Shown piece after piece: positions 2,834 through 50,291 of a DNA stretch of 64,000 nt (the first letter of the stretch is position 1; the number at the start of each line of letters is the position of its first letter). The position numbers and the translations under genes were made by a program. Source of the stretch: a phage; sequence record PZ452581.1; one strand, 5' to 3'. The notes below the pieces were generated by a model. It did not search any database and was not told where the DNA came from. It saw only the letters and a program-made list of their open reading frames with translations.

Positions 2834-2838
2834 TCAAC

Positions 2839-3015
2839 TTATGCTTTCTGCTTACCAAAACGAGAAGCATCATCTCGAAGAACCGCACGTGCTCGGCGCA
2901 TGATCTTCTCAACAGTTTGATTGATACGAGAGTTCGACCCACGCTTGTAACCAGCGCGTTTAGAATCACCAACTTTCTTTTCAACTGCTTTCTTTGCTTT
3001 AGCTTGTTTTGCCAT
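2839..3015 (-). CDS. small lysine/arginine-rich basic protein (about 58 aa; alternative start at 3057)
   Basis: Track ORF 2839-3057; internal ATG at 3015 gives MAKQAKAKKAVEKK...; followed by intrinsic terminator. Confidence 0.5.
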   Translation of the reverse strand: MAKQAKAKKAVEKKVGDSKRAGYKRGSNSRINQTVEKIMRRARAVLRDDASRFGKQKA

Positions 3016-3134
3016 TATAAATTCTCTTTTAAATGAAAATGCAGGACTTATTGGCATTGCCTGCGAAAGCCCTCAAGGGGTACTTAGGTTTTGAATATTT
3101 ACCGACAGGATAACCATAAACCTCGTCAACATAA

Positions 3135-3383
3135 TTACTTCAGTGTTACCACAAAGTGACGAACTGCTTTTCGTGCAGCAGAAGCCAGAGGCTTAGCATA
3201 TTTAAGTTCATCTTTTTCCTGAAGCTCAGCAGCTAGTGCAGTTTGAGCAGGATTCAGATGTTTGAAATAACGCAGGATTTCAAGAGCTTCGGCTTCAACA
3301 TCAATAGATGCGCCATAGTTTTCGTGACCATTATTCCATGCGTTTCGTTGCAGTTCAAGAGCGTGTTGTAATTGTTTAATCAT
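3135..3383 (-). CDS. rIII: rIII lysis-inhibition accessory protein
   Basis: 82 aa, position between 30.x block and gene 31 as in T4. Confidence 0.75.
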   Translation of the reverse strand: MIKQLQHALELQRNAWNNGHENYGASIDVEAEALEILRYFKHLNPAQTALAAELQEKDELKYAKPLASAARKAVRHFVVTLK

Positions 3384-3522
3384 TTAAAAATTCTCGTTAG
3401 AGATTAAAACTCGGTAGTCACGTTCTTCTGAATTTCATCTTCTTTCGACAGATCTCTCAGTTGTAGACTACCACATAGAATTGTTCGGTTAACTTATTAT
3501 TCCGACACCCAATTCATATTAT

Positions 3523-3530
3523 TATTTATA
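3523..3530 (-). promoter_or_regulatory. late promoter-like TATAAATA
   Basis: Exact TATAAATA on minus strand immediately downstream of gene 31 stop. Confidence 0.4.
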
Positions 3531-3866
3531 TCACTTATAAAGACACGGAATAGCTTTATAGTGACAGGTAACAAATTTTTGTTTAATTTCTTTTGGCTTC
3601 TTAAGACCCAGAGCTACAAAAGGATGTGGAACGTTTCGAATTTGACCAACTGGAAGAGAAGTCAAATCACCAACTTCACAGAAACCTTCAGGAACATCAG
3701 GACCAACAGAGTGAACTACACACAGTTCAGGAACTTCACCTTGGACACGTTTACCAATAATAAGTCCTGATTCTGTAACTTCTTCATCACCGGCTTGTGC
3801 AGGTTCAGAAACTAAAATAACATATTCACCGACAGCACGAATTGGTAGCTGTTGTACTTCAGACAT
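3531..3866 (-). CDS. 31: gp31 co-chaperonin (GroES analogue for capsid folding)
   Basis: 111 aa; sequence [30 protein letters not shown]... recognised as T4 gp31. Confidence 0.9.
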
Positions 3867-6869: not shown

Positions 6870-8094
<1,225 letters not shown>

Positions 8095-8968: not shown

Positions 8969-9465
8969 AAAGTTTTAATAACCTCTATAATATCGTCTTG
9001 AGAAAGACCGTTAATTAAAATATGATGTTCAGCCGGAGATTTAGAAATTTTAAAGCATGCCTCAACATCTTCTGCCATATCCGATGCACTACGATTTGGA
9101 TTACTAATTCCAAGACGATGCTTTCCAGTCAAAGGATTAACGATGATATAGCATTTGCAGCTATTGATATGAACATTAGGCTGAGTCTGATTAATGAATA
9201 CTTCGCACTCATACTTAGCGAGTTGATTTTCTAAAAAGACTTTCATCTCCTCAACCGCATCAGGAAGCATATCACGGGCTTGCTCAAGACGACGATTTCG
9301 ATATTCTTTAATGGTCGTTTTCCGCTTGACTTGCTTAGCTAAATCTTTCTTAAGATCGGTGATATATCCAACTCGACGATTTCCTTTGAATACAGAAATC
9401 CCATCTGTAGTATCACCGTATGCTTCAACGACCATTTCAGTAGTAATAAGCTGCAAATCCATCAT
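8959..9465 (-). CDS. alc: Alc-like transcription terminator of cytosine-containing DNA (assignment by size and synteny)
   Basis: 168 aa between pseT block and rnlA, as T4 alc (167 aa); early promoter motif upstream at 9487-9523. Confidence 0.6.
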   Translation of the reverse strand: MMDLQLITTEMVVEAYGDTTDGISVFKGNRRVGYITDLKKDLAKQVKRKTTIKEYRNRRLEQARDMLPDAVEEMKVFLENQLAKYECEVFINQTQPNVHINSCKCYIIVNPLTGKHRLGISNPNRSASDMAEDVEACFKISKSPAEHHILINGLSQDDIIEVIKTLCN

Positions 9466-17949: not shown

Positions 17950-18252
17950 TTATTTTTGAATTTTATCGAGCCACTTACCAAGCTTAATCATTTCTTTAGT
18001 AGCCTTTTCCATACTTCTGAACTTAACCAATAGAGGATAGGTATCGACACCCATAACTAAACTGGTTACAAGACTGTGTTCACCCACAAGCCATAATGAA
18101 TACGTTTGAATATCGAGTCCGTAATTTCTGTCTTTATGGACCCGTACACCCATCACTTCAAATTTCTCACTAGCTTTTTCTACCGCATCCAGGAAATCAT
18201 CTTTAGTCATATTAGGCCTTAAAAGTTTTTCGCAAAAGTTCAATGATTTCAT
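17950..18252 (-). CDS. hypothetical protein
   Basis: 100-aa ORF (start may be the internal Met). Confidence 0.5.
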   Translation of the reverse strand: MKSLNFCEKLLRPNMTKDDFLDAVEKASEKFEVMGVRVHKDRNYGLDIQTYSLWLVGEHSLVTSLVMGVDTYPLLVKFRSMEKATKEMIKLGKWLDKIQK

Positions 18253-18613
18253 CTACATTGTTTTCATCAACAATGCAGTGAATTTTTGTTACGTCAGAAA
18301 CCTTGTCTTCGACTTTATCTTCTTCAGAAGTTGGTTCTTTATATTCGCGGAAACAATAAAACTCTTCTTCACTAAGTTCAAAATAATCATCACCCATACC
18401 ATCATCATTATAGATTTCACCGTTAGCACAAATGATTTCGGTTACATAATCAAAGCCATCTAAACTTAATATTGATTTAACTTCAAACCAACCACCATTT
18501 TCTTGAATGATGCCGACCATATTAGCATTTGATGAACTAATATCAATGAAAGATTTAATACGGTGTGGATTTAACTCATATTTTTTGCCGATTTCCATTT
18601 TGATTTTCCTCAT
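18212..18613 (-). CDS. hypothetical acidic protein
   Basis: 133-aa ORF. Confidence 0.55.
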   Translation of the reverse strand: MRKIKMEIGKKYELNPHRIKSFIDISSSNANMVGIIQENGGWFEVKSILSLDGFDYVTEIICANGEIYNDDGMGDDYFELSEEEFYCFREYKEPTSEEDKVEDKVSDVTKIHCIVDENNVDEIIELLRKTFKA

Positions 18614-46755: not shown

Positions 46756-47175
46756 TTATTCCTTAAAGTGTGCTTTCAACATCTGATACAAGGACCATGC
46801 CTGTTCATTATTTTCAATAGTAACTTTCATGACAGGAAATTCTGTGAAATCTTCTATTTGTTCTTGCTCTTCCTGCTCTTGCTCTTCAGATGCCTGATAT
46901 GGATTTTCAACTTCATCGAAGAACTCAGCTTCGTTAGTAGAAAGCCAGATAAAGTTTTCATCAAGGATATCACCATGTTTTGCATATCCAATTGTGCCAG
47001 TAGATGACATAATTTTAGTAGGACGCCCAAGATAATCAGCATCTAAAATTTTAAAAGGTTCCATACCTAAACGGCGCGCATAGATTCCGTTATCAGTATG
47101 GTCTTTAATAAAATTTTCTTGAGCTTGTTTATTTTTAAATTGATACCATTTATTAACTTCAAATCTAATAGCCAT
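46756..47175 (-). CDS. hypothetical protein with acidic [10 protein letters not shown] tract
   Basis: 139-aa ORF. Confidence 0.55.
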
Positions 47176-47403: not shown

Positions 47404-47685
47404 TTAATTGAACAGTGGAGCGATGCGTTTCAGAAGAGTAGCAGCACCTTTAGCGAATTTTACATCATGAAAAACAGTTTCTTCTTCTGTAACAACTCGA
47501 ACTTTAATATTTTCGCAATCCCAATTTTTGCGAACAATCTTCAAAAGCTGCAGTAAATCTTTACATTCAGCAATATCGATAACACATCCACGAGAATCTT
47601 CCATTATCGCACGATAACCGTAAGCCATACCATAATCATTAAAAGATTGCTCGATGATAATTAAGTTTTCCATTTTATTCTCCAA
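47404..47685 (-). CDS. hypothetical protein
   Basis: 93-aa ORF. Confidence 0.5.
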   Translation of the reverse strand: MENKMENLIIIEQSFNDYGMAYGYRAIMEDSRGCVIDIAECKDLLQLLKIVRKNWDCENIKVRVVTEEETVFHDVKFAKGAATLLKRIAPLFN

Positions 47686-47770
47686 GTTGTTTTCTGTATC
47701 AGTAGTTGATATTGATATAGTACCATAATCAACTACTGATGTATATAGTTTTATGAAAAAATTTTAAACT

Positions 47771-48262
47771 TTATGCATAGCGAGCTTTGCTGTAGTGTTT
47801 AATCCAACTTTCAGGAATGACTTTGTATGTTCCTAAAAATACCGCGTTGTATAACTTAACGCCATCTTCTACCCATTGATCAGTAATGTATGCACACATA
47901 GCGCGAGTACGGTTAACAACACCTTCCTCACCTTCAGTAAATTCAAACTCATAAGGAGCAACGAACTTGATAGCTTGACCGAGTTTCCACTTAAAGTCTA
48001 CACCTACATGCGAAGTATCAATCGTTTCAATTCCTTTAGCGGGAACAGCTTTCAAAAACGCAGGCTCAAGAAATTTCCATCGAACATAACCAAACTGAGG
48101 TTTAGACATTCCATCTTTAGGAATGATACGCACTTTTACTTCAGAATCTTCATCTTTAACACCATGTTTAAGCTGAATGCTTACGACTTCAACCAATTTT
48201 CCTGCTGCCTTAGAACGGGATTTATCAGATACACGAGCAATTTCACCGATATTAATATTCAT
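47771..48262 (-). CDS. MotB-like protein (assignment by size and synteny)
   Basis: 163 aa; C-terminal segment paralogous to the next ORF. Confidence 0.55.
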   Translation of the reverse strand: MNINIGEIARVSDKSRSKAAGKLVEVVSIQLKHGVKDEDSEVKVRIIPKDGMSKPQFGYVRWKFLEPAFLKAVPAKGIETIDTSHVGVDFKWKLGQAIKFVAPYEFEFTEGEEGVVNRTRAMCAYITDQWVEDGVKLYNAVFLGTYKVIPESWIKHYSKARYA

Positions 48263-48299
48263 AATTATCTCTCACTTGTTAAAAAGATTTTATACTCCA

Positions 48300-48336
48300 C
48301 AGGACCATTATACTCTGGTCCCAAGAGTTTGTAAAC
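48300..48336 (-). promoter_or_regulatory. early promoter (GTTTAC ... TATAAT)
   Basis: Minus strand GTTTACAAACTCTTGGGACCAGAGTATAATGG. Confidence 0.55.
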
Positions 48337-48773
48337 TAGCTTACACGAACATTAATCACTGCGCTACGAGGAACTACAGAGTATTCTCCAGCATGAACTA
48401 CGTTCAGAAGTTCAACACCATCTTCAATCCACTGATCAGTCACCCATCCACCCACAGGATTCGCGAATGGACGACGAATATAAACTGCCTTACACAGCAG
48501 ATCAGTTGGATCTTCAGGTTTTTCAATTTCTGTCAATAGACTAAAATCTTTTTCATAAATAATAAGCGGTGATACCATTCCATAATAGTTTCTAATTTCA
48601 ATATACATCATACCGATAAGAATTCCGCTATTAACACTAATAACAGTAAAAGGATATCCGCCAGTTAAACCAAGAAGTTCACAAAACTTATTATGAGCTG
48701 TATTAGACAGTACCGAAAAATTCTTAATTTCATCAAATTTTTTCAATTGATAAACAGCATTATTTTTAATCAT
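48336..48773 (-). CDS. paralogue of MotB-like protein
   Basis: 145 aa; C-terminus VTDQWIEDGVELLNVVHAGEYSVVP aligns with ITDQWVEDGVKLYNAVFLGTYKVIP of the upstream neighbour. Confidence 0.55.
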   Translation of the reverse strand: MIKNNAVYQLKKFDEIKNFSVLSNTAHNKFCELLGLTGGYPFTVISVNSGILIGMMYIEIRNYYGMVSPLIIYEKDFSLLTEIEKPEDPTDLLCKAVYIRRPFANPVGGWVTDQWIEDGVELLNVVHAGEYSVVPRSAVINVRVS

Positions 48774-48783
48774 GATTTTCTCT

Positions 48784-49287
48784 TTAATTTAAAGTAATAA
48801 AGCCTTTTAATTCGGCATGTGATTTGCGGAACATTACTTGGTGCCCGCCAATGATAACTTGATCATCTGGAACTTCGTATACAGCGAGATAAAATCCTTT
48901 AGAAGATAATTCTTCACGCTCTTCTCGTGTGAACCATCTCATCATATCATATTCGCTAGCGAAAGCAAAATGATAAAGAGCTATAAACCATCCTGGAATA
49001 TAGTGATCTACGCCTACATATTCTTCTTTCTCAAAATTAGTATTAATTGCTATATTAGCATTTTTAACTAATAATTTGTCTTCGTGTGGAAGAGGAATTC
49101 TTTTATTATCATTACTATGATGCATAAAATTAGGTCTGTCATAACCTACGTGTAATAACCACTCTTCGCTCCATGAATCTATTATACTCCTGTATGGCGT
49201 TATTTGAACACAAAGATCTCGACGTATTGTTATAGCATCTTCATAATTAAGAATACTAAACGATGATTCAACACGATAAATTTTCAT
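48784..49287 (-). CDS. hypothetical protein
   Basis: Internal ATG at 49287 with GAGGATAAT Shine-Dalgarno, promoter motif 49308-49344; track ORF extends to 49326. Confidence 0.55.
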   Translation of the reverse strand: MKIYRVESSFSILNYEDAITIRRDLCVQITPYRSIIDSWSEEWLLHVGYDRPNFMHHSNDNKRIPLPHEDKLLVKNANIAINTNFEKEEYVGVDHYIPGWFIALYHFAFASEYDMMRWFTREEREELSSKGFYLAVYEVPDDQVIIGGHQVMFRKSHAELKGFITLN

Positions 49288-49307
49288 TTTATTATCCTCA
49301 GTAGCTA

Positions 49308-49344
49308 TGGTGTTATAGTACCACAACTAACCGAGGAAGTAAAC
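49308..49344 (-). promoter_or_regulatory. early promoter-like element
   Basis: Minus strand GTTTACTTCCTCGGTTAGTTGTGGTACTATAACACC. Confidence 0.55.
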
Positions 49345-49350
49345 AACTTT

Positions 49351-50034
49351 TTATCGTTTTGTTGGAAGAGATAGAGGATCGCAATCTTCCTCTGATGGAG
49401 CATCTTCAAGACCCATAGCATATCGCAAAGCGTACTTCATCATCAGGATGTCTTTCGCACAGTCATGAATAGAATCATGTGCAACGAATCCATCTAAAGT
49501 TCCCTTTGGAAGAGGACATGTGGTCATATCACGAACAAGCAGAAGTGCTTCAATTCTGGTACGAATATCACGCTGATTCCAGAATTTACATGGTTCTAAC
49601 TTAAATGTGTCAAGCTCATTCTCAGATACACCATTAAGGCGTTGAATATCACGAATGAGATCGACTAAAATTGGAAAATCAAACGACATTCCACGGCACC
49701 AGCCTTGAGATTTCCAAGGATCGATATTATGTGCATTGATGTAATCATTAAATTTCGCAATACCGTCGATAGTGCTTACATCTTCATCGGACGGTGCAAT
49801 ATTTTTTCGAGCTTCAGGAGATTGATTCTTCCACCATTCGATAGTACTTTTAGTAAAAAGACGATGTCCTTTTTGGCTTTTTAAATCAAATTTGATTTTA
49901 ATGCCACGTGAAACTAATTCATCGAATGTTTCAACCACTTCTGGATTAGGGTCAAAAGCAATTACAGCTAAATCAATAACCGCTGCTTTTTCACCACTTC
50001 CCATTGTTTCAAAATCTATAATAAAATCAAACAT
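49351..50034 (-). CDS. dexA: exonuclease A (DEDD 3'-5' exonuclease)
   Basis: 227 aa; Exo I motif IDFET. Confidence 0.8.
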   Translation of the reverse strand: MFDFIIDFETMGSGEKAAVIDLAVIAFDPNPEVVETFDELVSRGIKIKFDLKSQKGHRLFTKSTIEWWKNQSPEARKNIAPSDEDVSTIDGIAKFNDYINAHNIDPWKSQGWCRGMSFDFPILVDLIRDIQRLNGVSENELDTFKLEPCKFWNQRDIRTRIEALLLVRDMTTCPLPKGTLDGFVAHDSIHDCAKDILMMKYALRYAMGLEDAPSEEDCDPLSLPTKR

Positions 50035-50291
50035 TAAATTTTCCTTGCTAAATCGCGAATTTGACCTACAGTATAGTCTTGAATATAAACTTTATTAATA
50101 GGCTCATCAATAAATTTTGCCATAGATTCAATATCTTTTTGTATCTCTTTAAGACTGTATACTATCTTTGAAGCTTTTTCGCGAATAGTAATATTTTCAG
50201 GACCTGGATTTTCTTCAATGACAGCTTTAACATTTGTCATAAGAGATTTAAACTGGTACCAACTCAACTCAATCATTAATAATCGCCTCAT
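50034..50291 (-). CDS. hypothetical protein (dexA.x paralogue family)
   Basis: 85 aa; paralogous to the next ORF. Confidence 0.55.
   Translation of the reverse strand: MRRLLMIELSWYQFKSLMTNVKAVIEENPGPENITIREKASKIVYSLKEIQKDIESMAKFIDEPINKVYIQDYTVGQIRDLARKI

What the first reader, a model, noticed from the sequence alone, without database searches (positions are those of the whole stretch)
47771..48773. Tandem paralogues sharing a C-terminal domain (MotB-like pair)
The 163-aa and 145-aa ORFs share a conserved C-terminal block ((I/V)TDQW(V/I)EDGV(K/E)L...Y(K/S)V(I/V)P) but have unrelated N-terminal halves, pointing to duplication followed by N-terminal domain swapping.
Basis: seen in the sequence. 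Interest (0 to 1): 0.35.

Follow-up and report, generated by a model that had tools for sequence, protein, structure and literature searches.

The report
T4-type MotB/MotB.1 shared C-terminal domain
Two neighbouring early genes of a T4-like phage (motB and motB.1) do share a homologous C-terminal domain of about 55-70 residues behind unrelated N-terminal domains, but the T4 literature described this in 2021, so it is a correct but ordinary finding.

Summary
The window is a Tequatrovirus (T4-like) genome. The 163-aa ORF is MotB, the T4 "modifier of transcription" (Pfam PF17613, E 1e-96), not the flagellar MotB. The 145-aa ORF is the orthologue of T4 MotB.1.

**Shared C-terminus.** BLASTP gives 16/29 identities (E 7e-10), and 0 of 2000 shuffles reach the Smith-Waterman score. 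Profile-profile comparison extends the homology to 51 columns (MotB.1 92-143 with MotB 93-157, E 1e-15). AlphaFold2 models show the same five-strand module, with a hairpin insertion in MotB.

**N-termini.** They are unrelated in sequence (profile E 0.68).

**Swapping.** A congeneric phage (ACG-C40) has a different N-terminal cassette at the same locus, with DNA similarity resuming just before the shared domain. Distant relatives, and a Klebsiella phage with one syntenic copy, are all KOW-head + this C-terminal domain, so MotB.1's head is the derived part.

**Prior description.** PMC7827196 (2021) already reports the shared C-terminal domain, the different N-terminal domains and a likely duplication. 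PMC12152347 (2025) describes MotB.1's LSm-like N-terminal domain.

**By-product.** The T4 reference sequence carries an extra G that frameshifts motB.1 inside the conserved motif, giving 119 aa instead of 143. Thirteen other T4-type records lack it.

The function of the shared domain remains unknown.

The parts
47771..48262 (-). motB CDS (163 aa + stop): T4 MotB orthologue, 'modifier of transcription'
   Evidence: ORF. Pfam PF17613 at 321.5 bits, E 1e-96, full length. PHROG 1671. Syntenic with T4 motB.
48056..48262 (-). MotB N-terminal domain (residues 1-69): basic five-strand KOW/SH3-like barrel
   Evidence: AF2 strands at 8-11, 23-30, 41-46, 56-61 and 65-67. pI 9.63. Invariant V11, S12, S15, S17, G21 and near-invariant R16, K18, A20, i.e. 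the VS..SRSKAAGK loop. Distant homologues P0361 and P0369 pass the Pfam KOW cutoff. KOW prediction published in PMC7827196.
47774..48004 (-). MotB C-terminal domain (residues 87-163): the shared module, with a hairpin insertion of about 13-15 aa
   Evidence: AF2 strands at 97-110, 115-132, 135-142, 145-150 and 154-157. Residues 70-86 are a low-confidence linker. hhalign match covers residues 93-157. Joint alignment A4.
47807..47893 (-). Core conserved block in MotB (residues 124-152, AYITDQWVEDGVKLYNAVFLGTYKVIPES)
   Evidence: BLASTP; tblastn cross-hit.
48336..48773 (-). motB.1 CDS (145 aa + stop): intact orthologue of T4 MotB.1
   Evidence: ORF. 80% identical to the T4 locus by tblastn. Position between motB.2 and motB as in T4. 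PHROG 2333 at E 9e-68.
48519..48773 (-). MotB.1 N-terminal domain (residues 1-85): helix + five-strand barrel, reported as LSm-like
   Evidence: AF2 elements E7-10, H24-37, E42-49, E55-61, E67-73, H74-79, E80-83. LSm-like fold related to GoF and Frd.2 according to PMC12152347. Own tests give only weak support: hhalign against GoF E 0.02; Foldseek BFVD hit to GoF E 8e-3.
48339..48518 (-). MotB.1 C-terminal domain (residues 86-145): the shared module in its compact form
   Evidence: AF2 strands at 96-99, 107-117, 120-127, 130-135 and 139-141. In family alignment A1, 24 of the 27 invariant columns lie in residues 89-136. pI 4.75.
48363..48449 (-). Core conserved block in MotB.1 (residues 109-137, GWVTDQWIEDGVELLNVVHAGEYSVVPRS)
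   Evidence: BLASTP; tblastn cross-hit.
48307..48335 (-). Sigma-70-type promoter-like site (TTTACA-17-TATAAT, 11/12) between the motB.1 stop codon and motB
   Evidence: Consensus scan. Identical in T4. Annotated as host-promoter-like in phage Kha5h. Promoter function is inferred, not shown.
48560..48810 (-). Exchangeable cassette: 3' tip of motB.2 plus MotB.1 residues 1 to about 71. It has no DNA similarity to ACG-C40, which carries another N-terminal domain here.
   Evidence: blastn breakpoints; ACG-C40 annotation.

Best explanation
These are motB and motB.1, two adjacent early genes in the dispensable 39-dexA region of a T4-type phage.

They descend from one ancestral gene that encoded a KOW-type N-terminal barrel followed by a small five-stranded C-terminal beta module. 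That gene was duplicated in tandem in the Tequatrovirus/Mosigvirus lineage. The downstream copy (motB) kept the basic KOW head, and its C-terminal module acquired a hairpin insertion. The upstream copy (motB.1) kept a compact, ancestral-looking C-terminal module, but its head was replaced by an LSm-like barrel of the GoF/Frd.2 type. That head is still exchanged as a cassette between related phages.

Homology, domain boundaries, cassette exchange and polarity rest on the analyses here. Published experiments show that MotB binds DNA without sequence specificity, copurifies with H-NS and StpA, changes the H-NS footprint, and doubles burst size.

My inference on mechanism has lower confidence, about 0.3. 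The basic KOW head (pI 9.6) supplies the DNA binding. The shared C-terminal module is the most conserved part and is neutral to acidic (pI 6.8 and 4.75). I propose it is a common partner-binding or self-association module, so the two paralogues would bring different nucleic-acid-binding heads (DNA for MotB, possibly RNA for MotB.1) to the same target.
For: Identity.

Homology of the C-terminal domains. Matching strand order in the two AF2 models, with pLDDT 83 and 80.

Both models retrieve tandem Tudor, Agenet and KOW6-7 structures, i.e. two SH3-like barrels. The MotB.1 model retrieves MotB (E 5e-6) and a KOW-domain phage protein (E 4e-5) in BFVD.

Three N-terminal classes sit on one C-terminal domain. 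Cassette replacement at the same locus.

KOW+CTD is the general architecture, and the Klebsiella phage has a single syntenic copy.

The duplication is old, with no gene conversion. Charge distribution.

Published function of MotB: PMC6070864 and PMC7827196. Published shared CTD and suggested duplication: PMC7827196 section 3.2. MotB.1 LSm-like N-terminal domain, dispensability and dimer band: PMC12152347.
Against: No experiment assigns DNA binding to either MotB domain. The 2021 paper states that either domain could do it and predicts an OB fold for the C-terminal domain by HHpred.

The Foldseek PDB matches are marginal (E 7e-4 and 2e-3, TM about 0.3) and were made on whole two-domain models, so the SH3-like versus OB question is not settled.

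The relation between the MotB.1 N-terminal domain and GoF was not significant in my own profile test (E 0.02, probability 2.4%).

Polarity (KOW ancestral) is argued from distribution, not from a rooted tree, and recombination can blur it.

MotB.1 has no reported phenotype. However, the plasmid-expressed protein was reported at 13.8 kDa, the size of the frameshifted 119-aa product, and the phage-mutagenesis fragments were taken from NC_000866.4. If so, the published MotB.1 lacked the last ~28 residues of the native protein.
Confidence: 0.8

Rival explanations
1. The shared C-terminal module is itself the nucleic-acid-binding domain, an OB-fold of the cold-shock/eIF5A type as predicted by HHpred in 2021. 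Both paralogues would then be DNA binders, and the N-terminal heads would serve other roles.
For: HHpred assignment of MotB 69-149 to SCOPe b.40.4.5, reported in PMC7827196. The module is a five-stranded all-beta unit, which is compatible with an OB fold or with an SH3-like barrel.
Against: The module is neutral in MotB (pI 6.8) and acidic in MotB.1 (pI 4.75), and its invariant signature is acidic or aromatic (D, W, E, G). MotB.1 as a whole is acidic (pI 5.35). No OB-fold protein appears in the top 50 Foldseek PDB matches of either model; tandem Tudor, Agenet and KOW structures dominate. The basic conserved SRSKAAGK loop lies in the KOW head.
Confidence: 0.2
2. There was no tandem duplication of a whole gene. 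Instead, the DNA encoding the C-terminal domain is a mobile module that fused independently to two different heads by illegitimate or homologous recombination between phages.
For: The locus is clearly recombinogenic. N-terminal cassettes are exchanged. The 3' tail of motB.1 differs sharply between the window and T4 inside otherwise near-identical DNA. A 43-aa fusion of MotB.2 to the CTD tail exists (P0363). Proteins with two heads in tandem exist.
Against: The two genes are adjacent, in the same orientation, and syntenic with a single KOW+CTD gene in Marfavirus. C-terminal subtypes form a continuum with intermediates, all on KOW heads. Duplication followed by head replacement is the simpler path.
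Confidence: 0.12
3. The similarity is a chance or compositional short-motif match, or the result of recent gene conversion between otherwise unrelated genes.
For: The pairwise BLAST alignment covers only 29 residues.
Against: 0 of 2000 shuffles reach the score, about 15 sd above the mean. The profile-profile E-value is 1e-15 over 51 columns. Nucleotide identity in the block is only 55%, with a longest exact run of 8 nt, which excludes recent conversion.
Confidence: 0.01

Closest known systems
Bacteriophage T4 MotB (Pfam PF17613, 'Modifier of transcription'; PHROG 1671)
   Same: The 163-aa ORF is a full-length member: 321.5 bits, the same length class as T4 MotB (163 vs 162 aa), the same locus and the same upstream promoter-like site.
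   Different: Nothing substantive; it is an orthologue. 'Transcriptional regulator' is a historical label. The published transcriptome data show almost no effect on T4 transcription (PMC6070864).
Bacteriophage T4 MotB.1 (P39415, 'uncharacterized 13.8 kDa protein'; PHROG 2333)
   Same: Same locus, about 80% identity, and the same domain pair of an LSm-like N-terminal domain plus a MotB-type C-terminal domain.
   Different: The window's protein is intact at 145 aa. The T4 reference entry is cut to 119 aa by a +1 frameshift inside the TDQWIEDG motif. Thirteen other T4-type records lack that extra G.
GoF / Frd.2 / MotB.1 LSm-like N-terminal domain family of Tevenvirinae (PMC12152347)
   Same: The MotB.1 N-terminal domain is predicted as a helix plus a bent five-stranded sheet. 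GoF (46756..47175) and an Frd.2 homologue (about 18218..18604) are both in this window.
   Different: My own sequence-profile test of MotB.1 N-terminal domain against GoF was not significant (E 0.02). The structural hit to GoF was weak (E 8e-3, TM 0.47 on the target). GoF and Frd.2 have different C-terminal domains.
KOW domain (PF00467; NusG/Spt5, ribosomal proteins uL24 and eS4)
   Same: The MotB head is a small basic five-stranded barrel. Distant MotB relatives P0361 and P0369 pass the Pfam KOW cutoff. Spt5 KOW6-7 and eS4 appear among the Foldseek hits.
   Different: The window's MotB does not hit Pfam KOW at E<=1. There is no NGN domain and no evidence of RNA polymerase or ribosome binding.
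Tandem Tudor / Agenet domains (53BP1, UHRF1, AGDP3)
   Same: These are the best PDB fold matches for both models: two SH3-like barrels in tandem.
   Different: The E-values are marginal, TM is about 0.25-0.34, and sequence identity is 9-18%. This is a fold analogy only. No aromatic cage was tested and no homology is claimed.
Flagellar stator MotB (OmpA-like)
   Same: Only the name.
   Different: There is no Pfam OmpA or MotB_plug hit, and no transmembrane helix is expected. PF17613 is an unrelated phage family.

Membership tests
Pfam PF17613 motB (T4 modifier of transcription) | Full-length match to the 162-position model above the gathering score (25 bits) | tested here: met
   163-aa ORF: 321.5 bits, residues 1-163 against model positions 1-162.
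Pfam PF17613 motB (C-terminal part only) | Match of the 145-aa ORF above the gathering score | tested here: met
   32.7 bits (cutoff 25), but only residues 104-139 against model positions 118-153. MotB.1 is therefore a partial, C-terminal-only member.
T4 MotB.1 orthologue group (PHROG 2333) | Full-length similarity and a position between motB.2 and motB | tested here: met
   PHROG 2333 at E 9.3e-68 over residues 1-144. tblastn to T4 gives 80% identity over residues 1-142. Gene order as in NC_000866.
Homologous shared C-terminal domain (paralogy of MotB and MotB.1) | Significant profile-profile match covering the whole module, with the same secondary-structure order | tested here: met
   hhalign E 1.1e-15 and 5.3e-19. 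Five matching strands in the AF2 models. Nine invariant columns in the joint alignment.
Homology of the two N-terminal domains | Any significant sequence or profile similarity | tested here: not met
   Smith-Waterman score 20, below the shuffle mean. hhalign E 0.68, probability 0.07%. Both may still be SH3-like barrels at the fold level.
KOW domain (PF00467) for the MotB N-terminal domain | Pfam KOW match above the cutoff of 22.3 bits | tested here: inconclusive
   The window's MotB gives no KOW hit at E<=1. The distant family members P0361 (24.8 bits) and P0369 (22.9 bits) do pass. HHpred KOW assignment published in PMC7827196.
LSm-like GoF/Frd.2/MotB.1 N-terminal domain family | Detectable relation of the MotB.1 N-terminal domain to the GoF N-terminal domain | tested here: inconclusive
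OB-fold (SCOPe b.40.4.5) for the shared C-terminal domain | Structural match to OB-fold proteins | tested here: inconclusive
   No OB-fold entries appear in the top 50 Foldseek PDB hits of either model. The searches used whole two-domain models, and a domain-level comparison could not be run. The PDB sequence-profile search found nothing.
Flagellar MotB / OmpA-like | OmpA-like or MotB_plug Pfam domains | tested here: not met
   PF17613 is the only family reported for either protein at E<=1.

The most novel reading that the evidence does not exclude
The shared C-terminal module could be a previously unclassified SH3/Tudor-like docking domain. It would tether interchangeable nucleic-acid-binding heads (KOW, one or two LSm-like barrels) to a single host target such as H-NS/StpA-DNA filaments. 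The motB/motB.1 locus would then be a modular, cassette-exchanging counter-silencing toolkit. A related point: published work on T4 MotB.1 may have used a C-terminally truncated 119-aa artefact of the reference sequence. If so, MotB.1's lack of phenotype and its weak activity would need re-examination with the intact 143-145-aa protein.
Probability: 0.15. Interest if true: 0.5.

Novelty: already known. Interest (0 to 1): 0.15.

Why it matters
The core finding matters little as a discovery, because it reproduces a published observation (Viruses 2021;13:84).

It has some value as a clean, DNA-level example of domain-cassette exchange in the hyperplastic early region of T4-like phages.

The by-product is of practical use to T4 researchers. 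The reference genome NC_000866.4 truncates MotB.1 in the middle of its most conserved motif, and 13 other T4-type records do not. Constructs built from the reference sequence would encode a protein that ends in four frameshifted residues and lacks the native C-terminal 28 residues, roughly half of the shared domain.

The function of the shared domain is still open. It is restricted to about 30 protein clusters worldwide.

Tried and rejected
(1) I tested for hidden homology between the two N-terminal domains, since both are SH3-like barrels. The Smith-Waterman score is below the shuffle mean, and hhalign gives E 0.68. I rejected this at the sequence level.

(2) I tested whether the C-terminal domain is an internal repeat of either N-terminal domain. 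hhalign gives E 0.0064 (probability 5.9%) for MotB.1 and E 0.21 for MotB. Neither is convincing.

(3) I tried to confirm independently that the MotB.1 N-terminal domain is related to GoF, using a GoF alignment. The alignment had too little diversity (Neff 1.5), and the result was E 0.02, which is inconclusive.

(4) A regex screen suggested 12 proteins with two copies of the core motif. Inspection showed these were false positives of the 3-mismatch pattern. They revealed tandem duplicated heads, not duplicated C-terminal domains.

(5) The long multi-stretch hits of the C-terminal profile (P0362, P0364, P0366, P0367) are mostly Ig-like or phage-tail repeat proteins. I regard them as spurious.

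(6) Sequence-profile searches of the PDB with the C-terminal profile and the MotB family profile gave no hit at E<=10.

(7) Recent gene conversion between the two C-terminal domains is rejected by the 55% nucleotide identity.

(8) I initially recalled the 145-aa gene as 'dexA.2' from memory. The T4 record shows it is motB.1, and a literature search for 'DexA.2' was useless.

Full report
**Identity of the region**

The window around the finding is 96-98% identical to Tequatrovirus genomes such as Escherichia phage 132, Shigella phage Sf22 and Kha5h. The gene order on the minus strand is that of T4:
- gene 39 (topoisomerase large subunit)
- 39.1
- 39.2
- goF
- cef
- motB
- motB.1
- motB.2
- dexA
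- three small ORFs, where T4 has dexA.1 and dexA.2
- dda

The 163-aa ORF (47771..48262) is MotB, the T4 'modifier of transcription'. It matches Pfam PF17613 at 321.5 bits over its full length and PHROG 1671. The 145-aa ORF (48336..48773) is the orthologue of T4 motB.1. It matches PHROG 2333 at E 9e-68, shows 80% identity to a T4 genome record (OL964745.1) by tblastn, and sits between motB.2 and motB. 'MotB' here has nothing to do with the flagellar stator protein.

**Check of the observation**

The quoted block is present.
- BLASTP aligns MotB 124-152 with MotB.1 109-137: 16/29 identical, E 7e-10.
- The Smith-Waterman score is 98. The mean of 2000 shuffles is 28.1 (sd 4.6), and none reach 98.
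- The N-terminal parts score 20, which is below their shuffle mean.
- Only these two copies occur in the 64-kb window.

The similarity is not confined to the short motif.
- The Pfam motB model hits MotB.1 at 32.7 bits, above its cutoff of 25.
- PHROG 1671 matches MotB.1 79-141 at E 2.7e-15.
- Profile-profile comparison of the two family alignments (A1 and A2) gives one hit, MotB.1 92-143 with MotB 93-157: 51 columns, probability 98.6%, E 1.1e-15.
- With the domains cut out, CTD against CTD gives E 5e-19 and NTD against NTD gives E 0.68.
- A joint alignment of C-terminal domains from both families shows nine invariant columns spread over the whole module (L, F, D, W, E, G, L, N, V). MotB carries a 13-15-residue insertion.

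**Anatomy**

The AlphaFold2 models have mean pLDDT of 83.0 for MotB.1 and 79.8 for MotB.

| Protein | N-terminal part | Linker | C-terminal module |
|---|---|---|---|
| MotB | Five-stranded barrel, residues 8-67 | Low-confidence, residues 70-86 | Strands 97-110, 115-132, 135-142, 145-150, 154-157 |
| MotB.1 | Helix plus five-stranded barrel, residues 7-83 | Not separately resolved | Strands 96-99, 107-117, 120-127, 130-135, 139-141 |

The strand order of the two C-terminal modules corresponds one to one. The insertion in MotB lengthens the first hairpin.

Foldseek against the PDB returns the same class for both models: tandem Tudor domains of 53BP1 and UHRF1, Agenet domains, and Spt5 KOW6-7. 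These are two SH3-like barrels in tandem. The statistics are marginal (E 7e-4 and 2e-3, TM about 0.3), and the search used whole two-domain chains. Against BFVD, the MotB.1 model finds its own relatives, then MotB (E 5e-6), then a 'KOW domain-containing protein' of Serratia phage PS2 (E 4e-5), and weakly GoF (E 8e-3). No solved structure matches by sequence profile.

A sigma-70-type promoter-like site (TTTACA-17-TATAAT, 11/12) lies at 48335..48307, directly after the motB.1 stop codon. It is identical in T4. motB.1 itself starts 10 nt after the end of motB.2, so it is probably co-transcribed with motB.2.

**Evidence for swapping and its direction**

Among 225 homologues, the N-terminal regions fall into three classes on the same C-terminal domain:
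- MotB type: 103 proteins.
- A 180-aa or 250-aa class: 83 proteins. Some have two heads in tandem.
- The window's MotB.1 type: 30 proteins.

In ACG-C40, a member of the same genus, the locus between motB.2 and motB holds a 182-aa protein of the second class. At the DNA level the window and ACG-C40 are collinear at 95% (50100..48811) and 91% (48559..47663). The 251 bp between those blocks (48560..48810), which encode MotB.1 residues 1 to about 71, have no similarity. This is a cassette replacement whose right breakpoint lies just before the shared domain.

An exhaustive profile search of 1.84 billion representative proteins with the C-terminal profile found only 33 clusters at E<=1e-3. Most of the few long hits are Ig-like or phage-tail repeat proteins, and I treat them as spurious.

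All divergent genuine members have a KOW-like head (VYVS..S.SK.AGE). Two of them pass the Pfam KOW cutoff. None has a MotB.1-like head. Their C-terminal domains vary:
- MotB.1 type, 53-78% identical to the window's MotB.1 C-terminal domain.
- MotB type.
- Intermediate.

Klebsiella phages carry a single such gene per genome. In the one examined, Marfavirus P545, it lies in the syntenic dda-dexA locus.

The simplest reading is as follows. The ancestral gene encoded KOW + CTD. It duplicated in tandem in the Tequatrovirus/Mosigvirus lineage. In the upstream copy the head was replaced by an LSm-like barrel. The shared block is only 55% identical at the nucleotide level, with a longest exact run of 8 nt. 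The duplication is therefore old and there has been no recent gene conversion.

**What is already known**

PMC7827196 (Viruses 2021) makes the following statements in section 3.2 and its discussion:
[quoted passage not shown] - Homologues fall into four categories by N-terminal domain.
- HHpred predicts a KOW N-terminal domain and an OB-fold C-terminal domain for MotB.

PMC12152347 (2025) reports that the MotB.1 N-terminal domain (residues 1-82) has an LSm-like fold shared with GoF and Frd.2. It also reports that motB.1 is dispensable and that the protein runs as monomer and dimer. PMC6070864 (2018) shows that MotB is toxic when overexpressed, binds modified and unmodified DNA non-specifically, copurifies with H-NS and StpA, and doubles burst size. 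These are the only two papers in the library that mention motB.1.

**Mechanism**

What is shown is the homology, the domain boundaries, the cassette exchange, and (from the literature) the DNA and H-NS-related activity of MotB.

What follows is inferred. The KOW head of MotB is basic (pI 9.63) and carries the invariant SRSKAAGK-type loop. The shared C-terminal domain is neutral in MotB (pI 6.78) and acidic in MotB.1 (pI 4.75). Its invariant signature, [ST]D[QR]W.E.G, is acidic and aromatic. It is also the most conserved part of the MotB.1 family: 24 of 27 invariant columns lie in residues 89-136.

I therefore think DNA binding more likely resides in the KOW head. The shared module would be a common partner-binding or self-association unit, and the two paralogues would deliver different heads to the same target. 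I put about 0.3 on this functional reading. The main rival is the published suggestion that the C-terminal domain is a DNA-binding OB fold, at about 0.2. The Foldseek results lean towards SH3-like rather than OB but do not settle it.

**By-product: a frameshift in the T4 reference**

Aligning the window with NC_000866.4 shows one extra G in the reference inside the core motif (CAATGGATT[G]GAAGATGG). The annotated 119-aa T4 MotB.1 ends ...TDQWIGRWR*. Removing one G gives a 143-aa protein that matches P0017, a sequence seen on 256 contigs, apart from the residue at the edited codon.

In a 101-nt search, only AF158101.6 and NC_000866.4 match at 100%. Thirteen other T4-type records match with one base fewer: eleven records of T4 or T4T (HM137666, KJ477684-6, MT984581, MZ375356, OL964735, OL964745, OZ035787, OZ209023, OZ209057) plus RB55 and RB59.

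The 2025 paper reports plasmid-expressed MotB.1 at 13.8 kDa, the size of the 119-aa product, and took its phage-mutagenesis fragments from NC_000866.4. It does not mention a frameshift or truncation. The window's MotB.1 is intact.

**Verdict**

Interest is low. The residual open question is what the narrowly distributed shared module does.

Noticed in passing
L002 (NC_000866.4) locus 3292-3651, i.e. T4 7291..7650; corresponds to window 48336..48773: The T4 reference genome has one extra G inside the conserved TDQWIEDG motif of motB.1. This gives a +1 frameshift and a 119-aa product ending ...TDQWIGRWR*. Removing one G gives a 143-aa protein that matches P0017 (seen on 256 contigs) apart from the residue at the edited codon. 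Only AF158101.6 and NC_000866.4 carry the extra G; 13 other T4-type records do not. The extra G is probably a sequencing error or an isolate-specific lesion. The 2025 MotB.1 study appears to have used the 13.8-kDa version.
   Followed up: yes
window 47466..47662, within ORF 47404..47685 (-): A 197-bp segment between cef and motB is present in the window but absent from T4 and ACG-C40. The blastn blocks abut, with an overlap of about 10 nt in the subject. The segment carries most of a 93-aa ORF (PHROG 3720, unknown function) that T4 lacks.
   Followed up: partly
window 47698..47740 (-), between the motB stop codon and the 93-aa ORF: A strong RNA hairpin with a 13-bp outer stem, -20.2 kcal/mol, z -5.1, and 0 of 200 shuffles as stable. 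It lies about 30 nt downstream of the motB stop codon and has no U-tract. It is therefore not a canonical intrinsic terminator and may be a processing or stability element.
   Followed up: partly
proteins P0020, P0025, P0027, P0028, P0030, P0119, P0350, P0353-P0355, P0357, P0359 (alignment A1, columns about 84-100 and 266-290): A short motif, roughly [IVF]D.D[VIL]..MY.TP..P, recurs in three places: in linkers between the KOW head and the C-terminal domain, at the N-termini of the 180-aa class, and as an insertion in 164-169-aa MotB.1 variants. It may be a linear interaction motif or a recombination scar. The window's MotB.1 lacks it.
   Followed up: no
protein P0363 (43 aa); compare window 48784..49326 (motB.2) and 48339..48420: This 43-aa protein joins the MotB.2 N-terminus (MKIYRVESSFSIL.YED) directly to the last 27 residues of the MotB.1 C-terminal domain. 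It looks like a deletion derivative that removed most of motB.2 and motB.1. It resembles the 29-aa 'category 3' peptide that the 2021 paper reported in RB69.
   Followed up: no
window about 18218..18604 (-): An Frd.2 homologue (MRKIKMEIGKKYELNPH...) gives a weak full-length tblastn match to the window's GoF: 27.7% identity over 141 aa, E 0.063. This agrees with the published GoF/Frd.2 relationship. Its IGKKYEL start also resembles the heads of the 180-aa MotB.1-like class.
   Followed up: partly
L002 (NC_000866.4) dexA.2, record 9143..9388; L001 (Kha5h) CDS at 2837-3274 and 3285-3788: Annotation artefacts. RefSeq T4 names the dexA.2 product 'dextranase', apparently derived from the gene name. 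Kha5h labels the MotB.1 and MotB.2 homologues 'transcriptional regulator' and small dexA-adjacent ORFs 'exonuclease' without evidence.
   Followed up: no
window 48339..48362 versus T4 (alignment A3, columns 547-563): The last 6-8 codons of motB.1 differ sharply between the window (..AVINVRVS) and T4 (..AVVAILN), although the flanking DNA is nearly identical. The 'INVRVS' tail also occurs on a protein with a different head (P0030). This suggests a second small recombination hotspot just upstream of the motB promoter-like site.
   Followed up: partly
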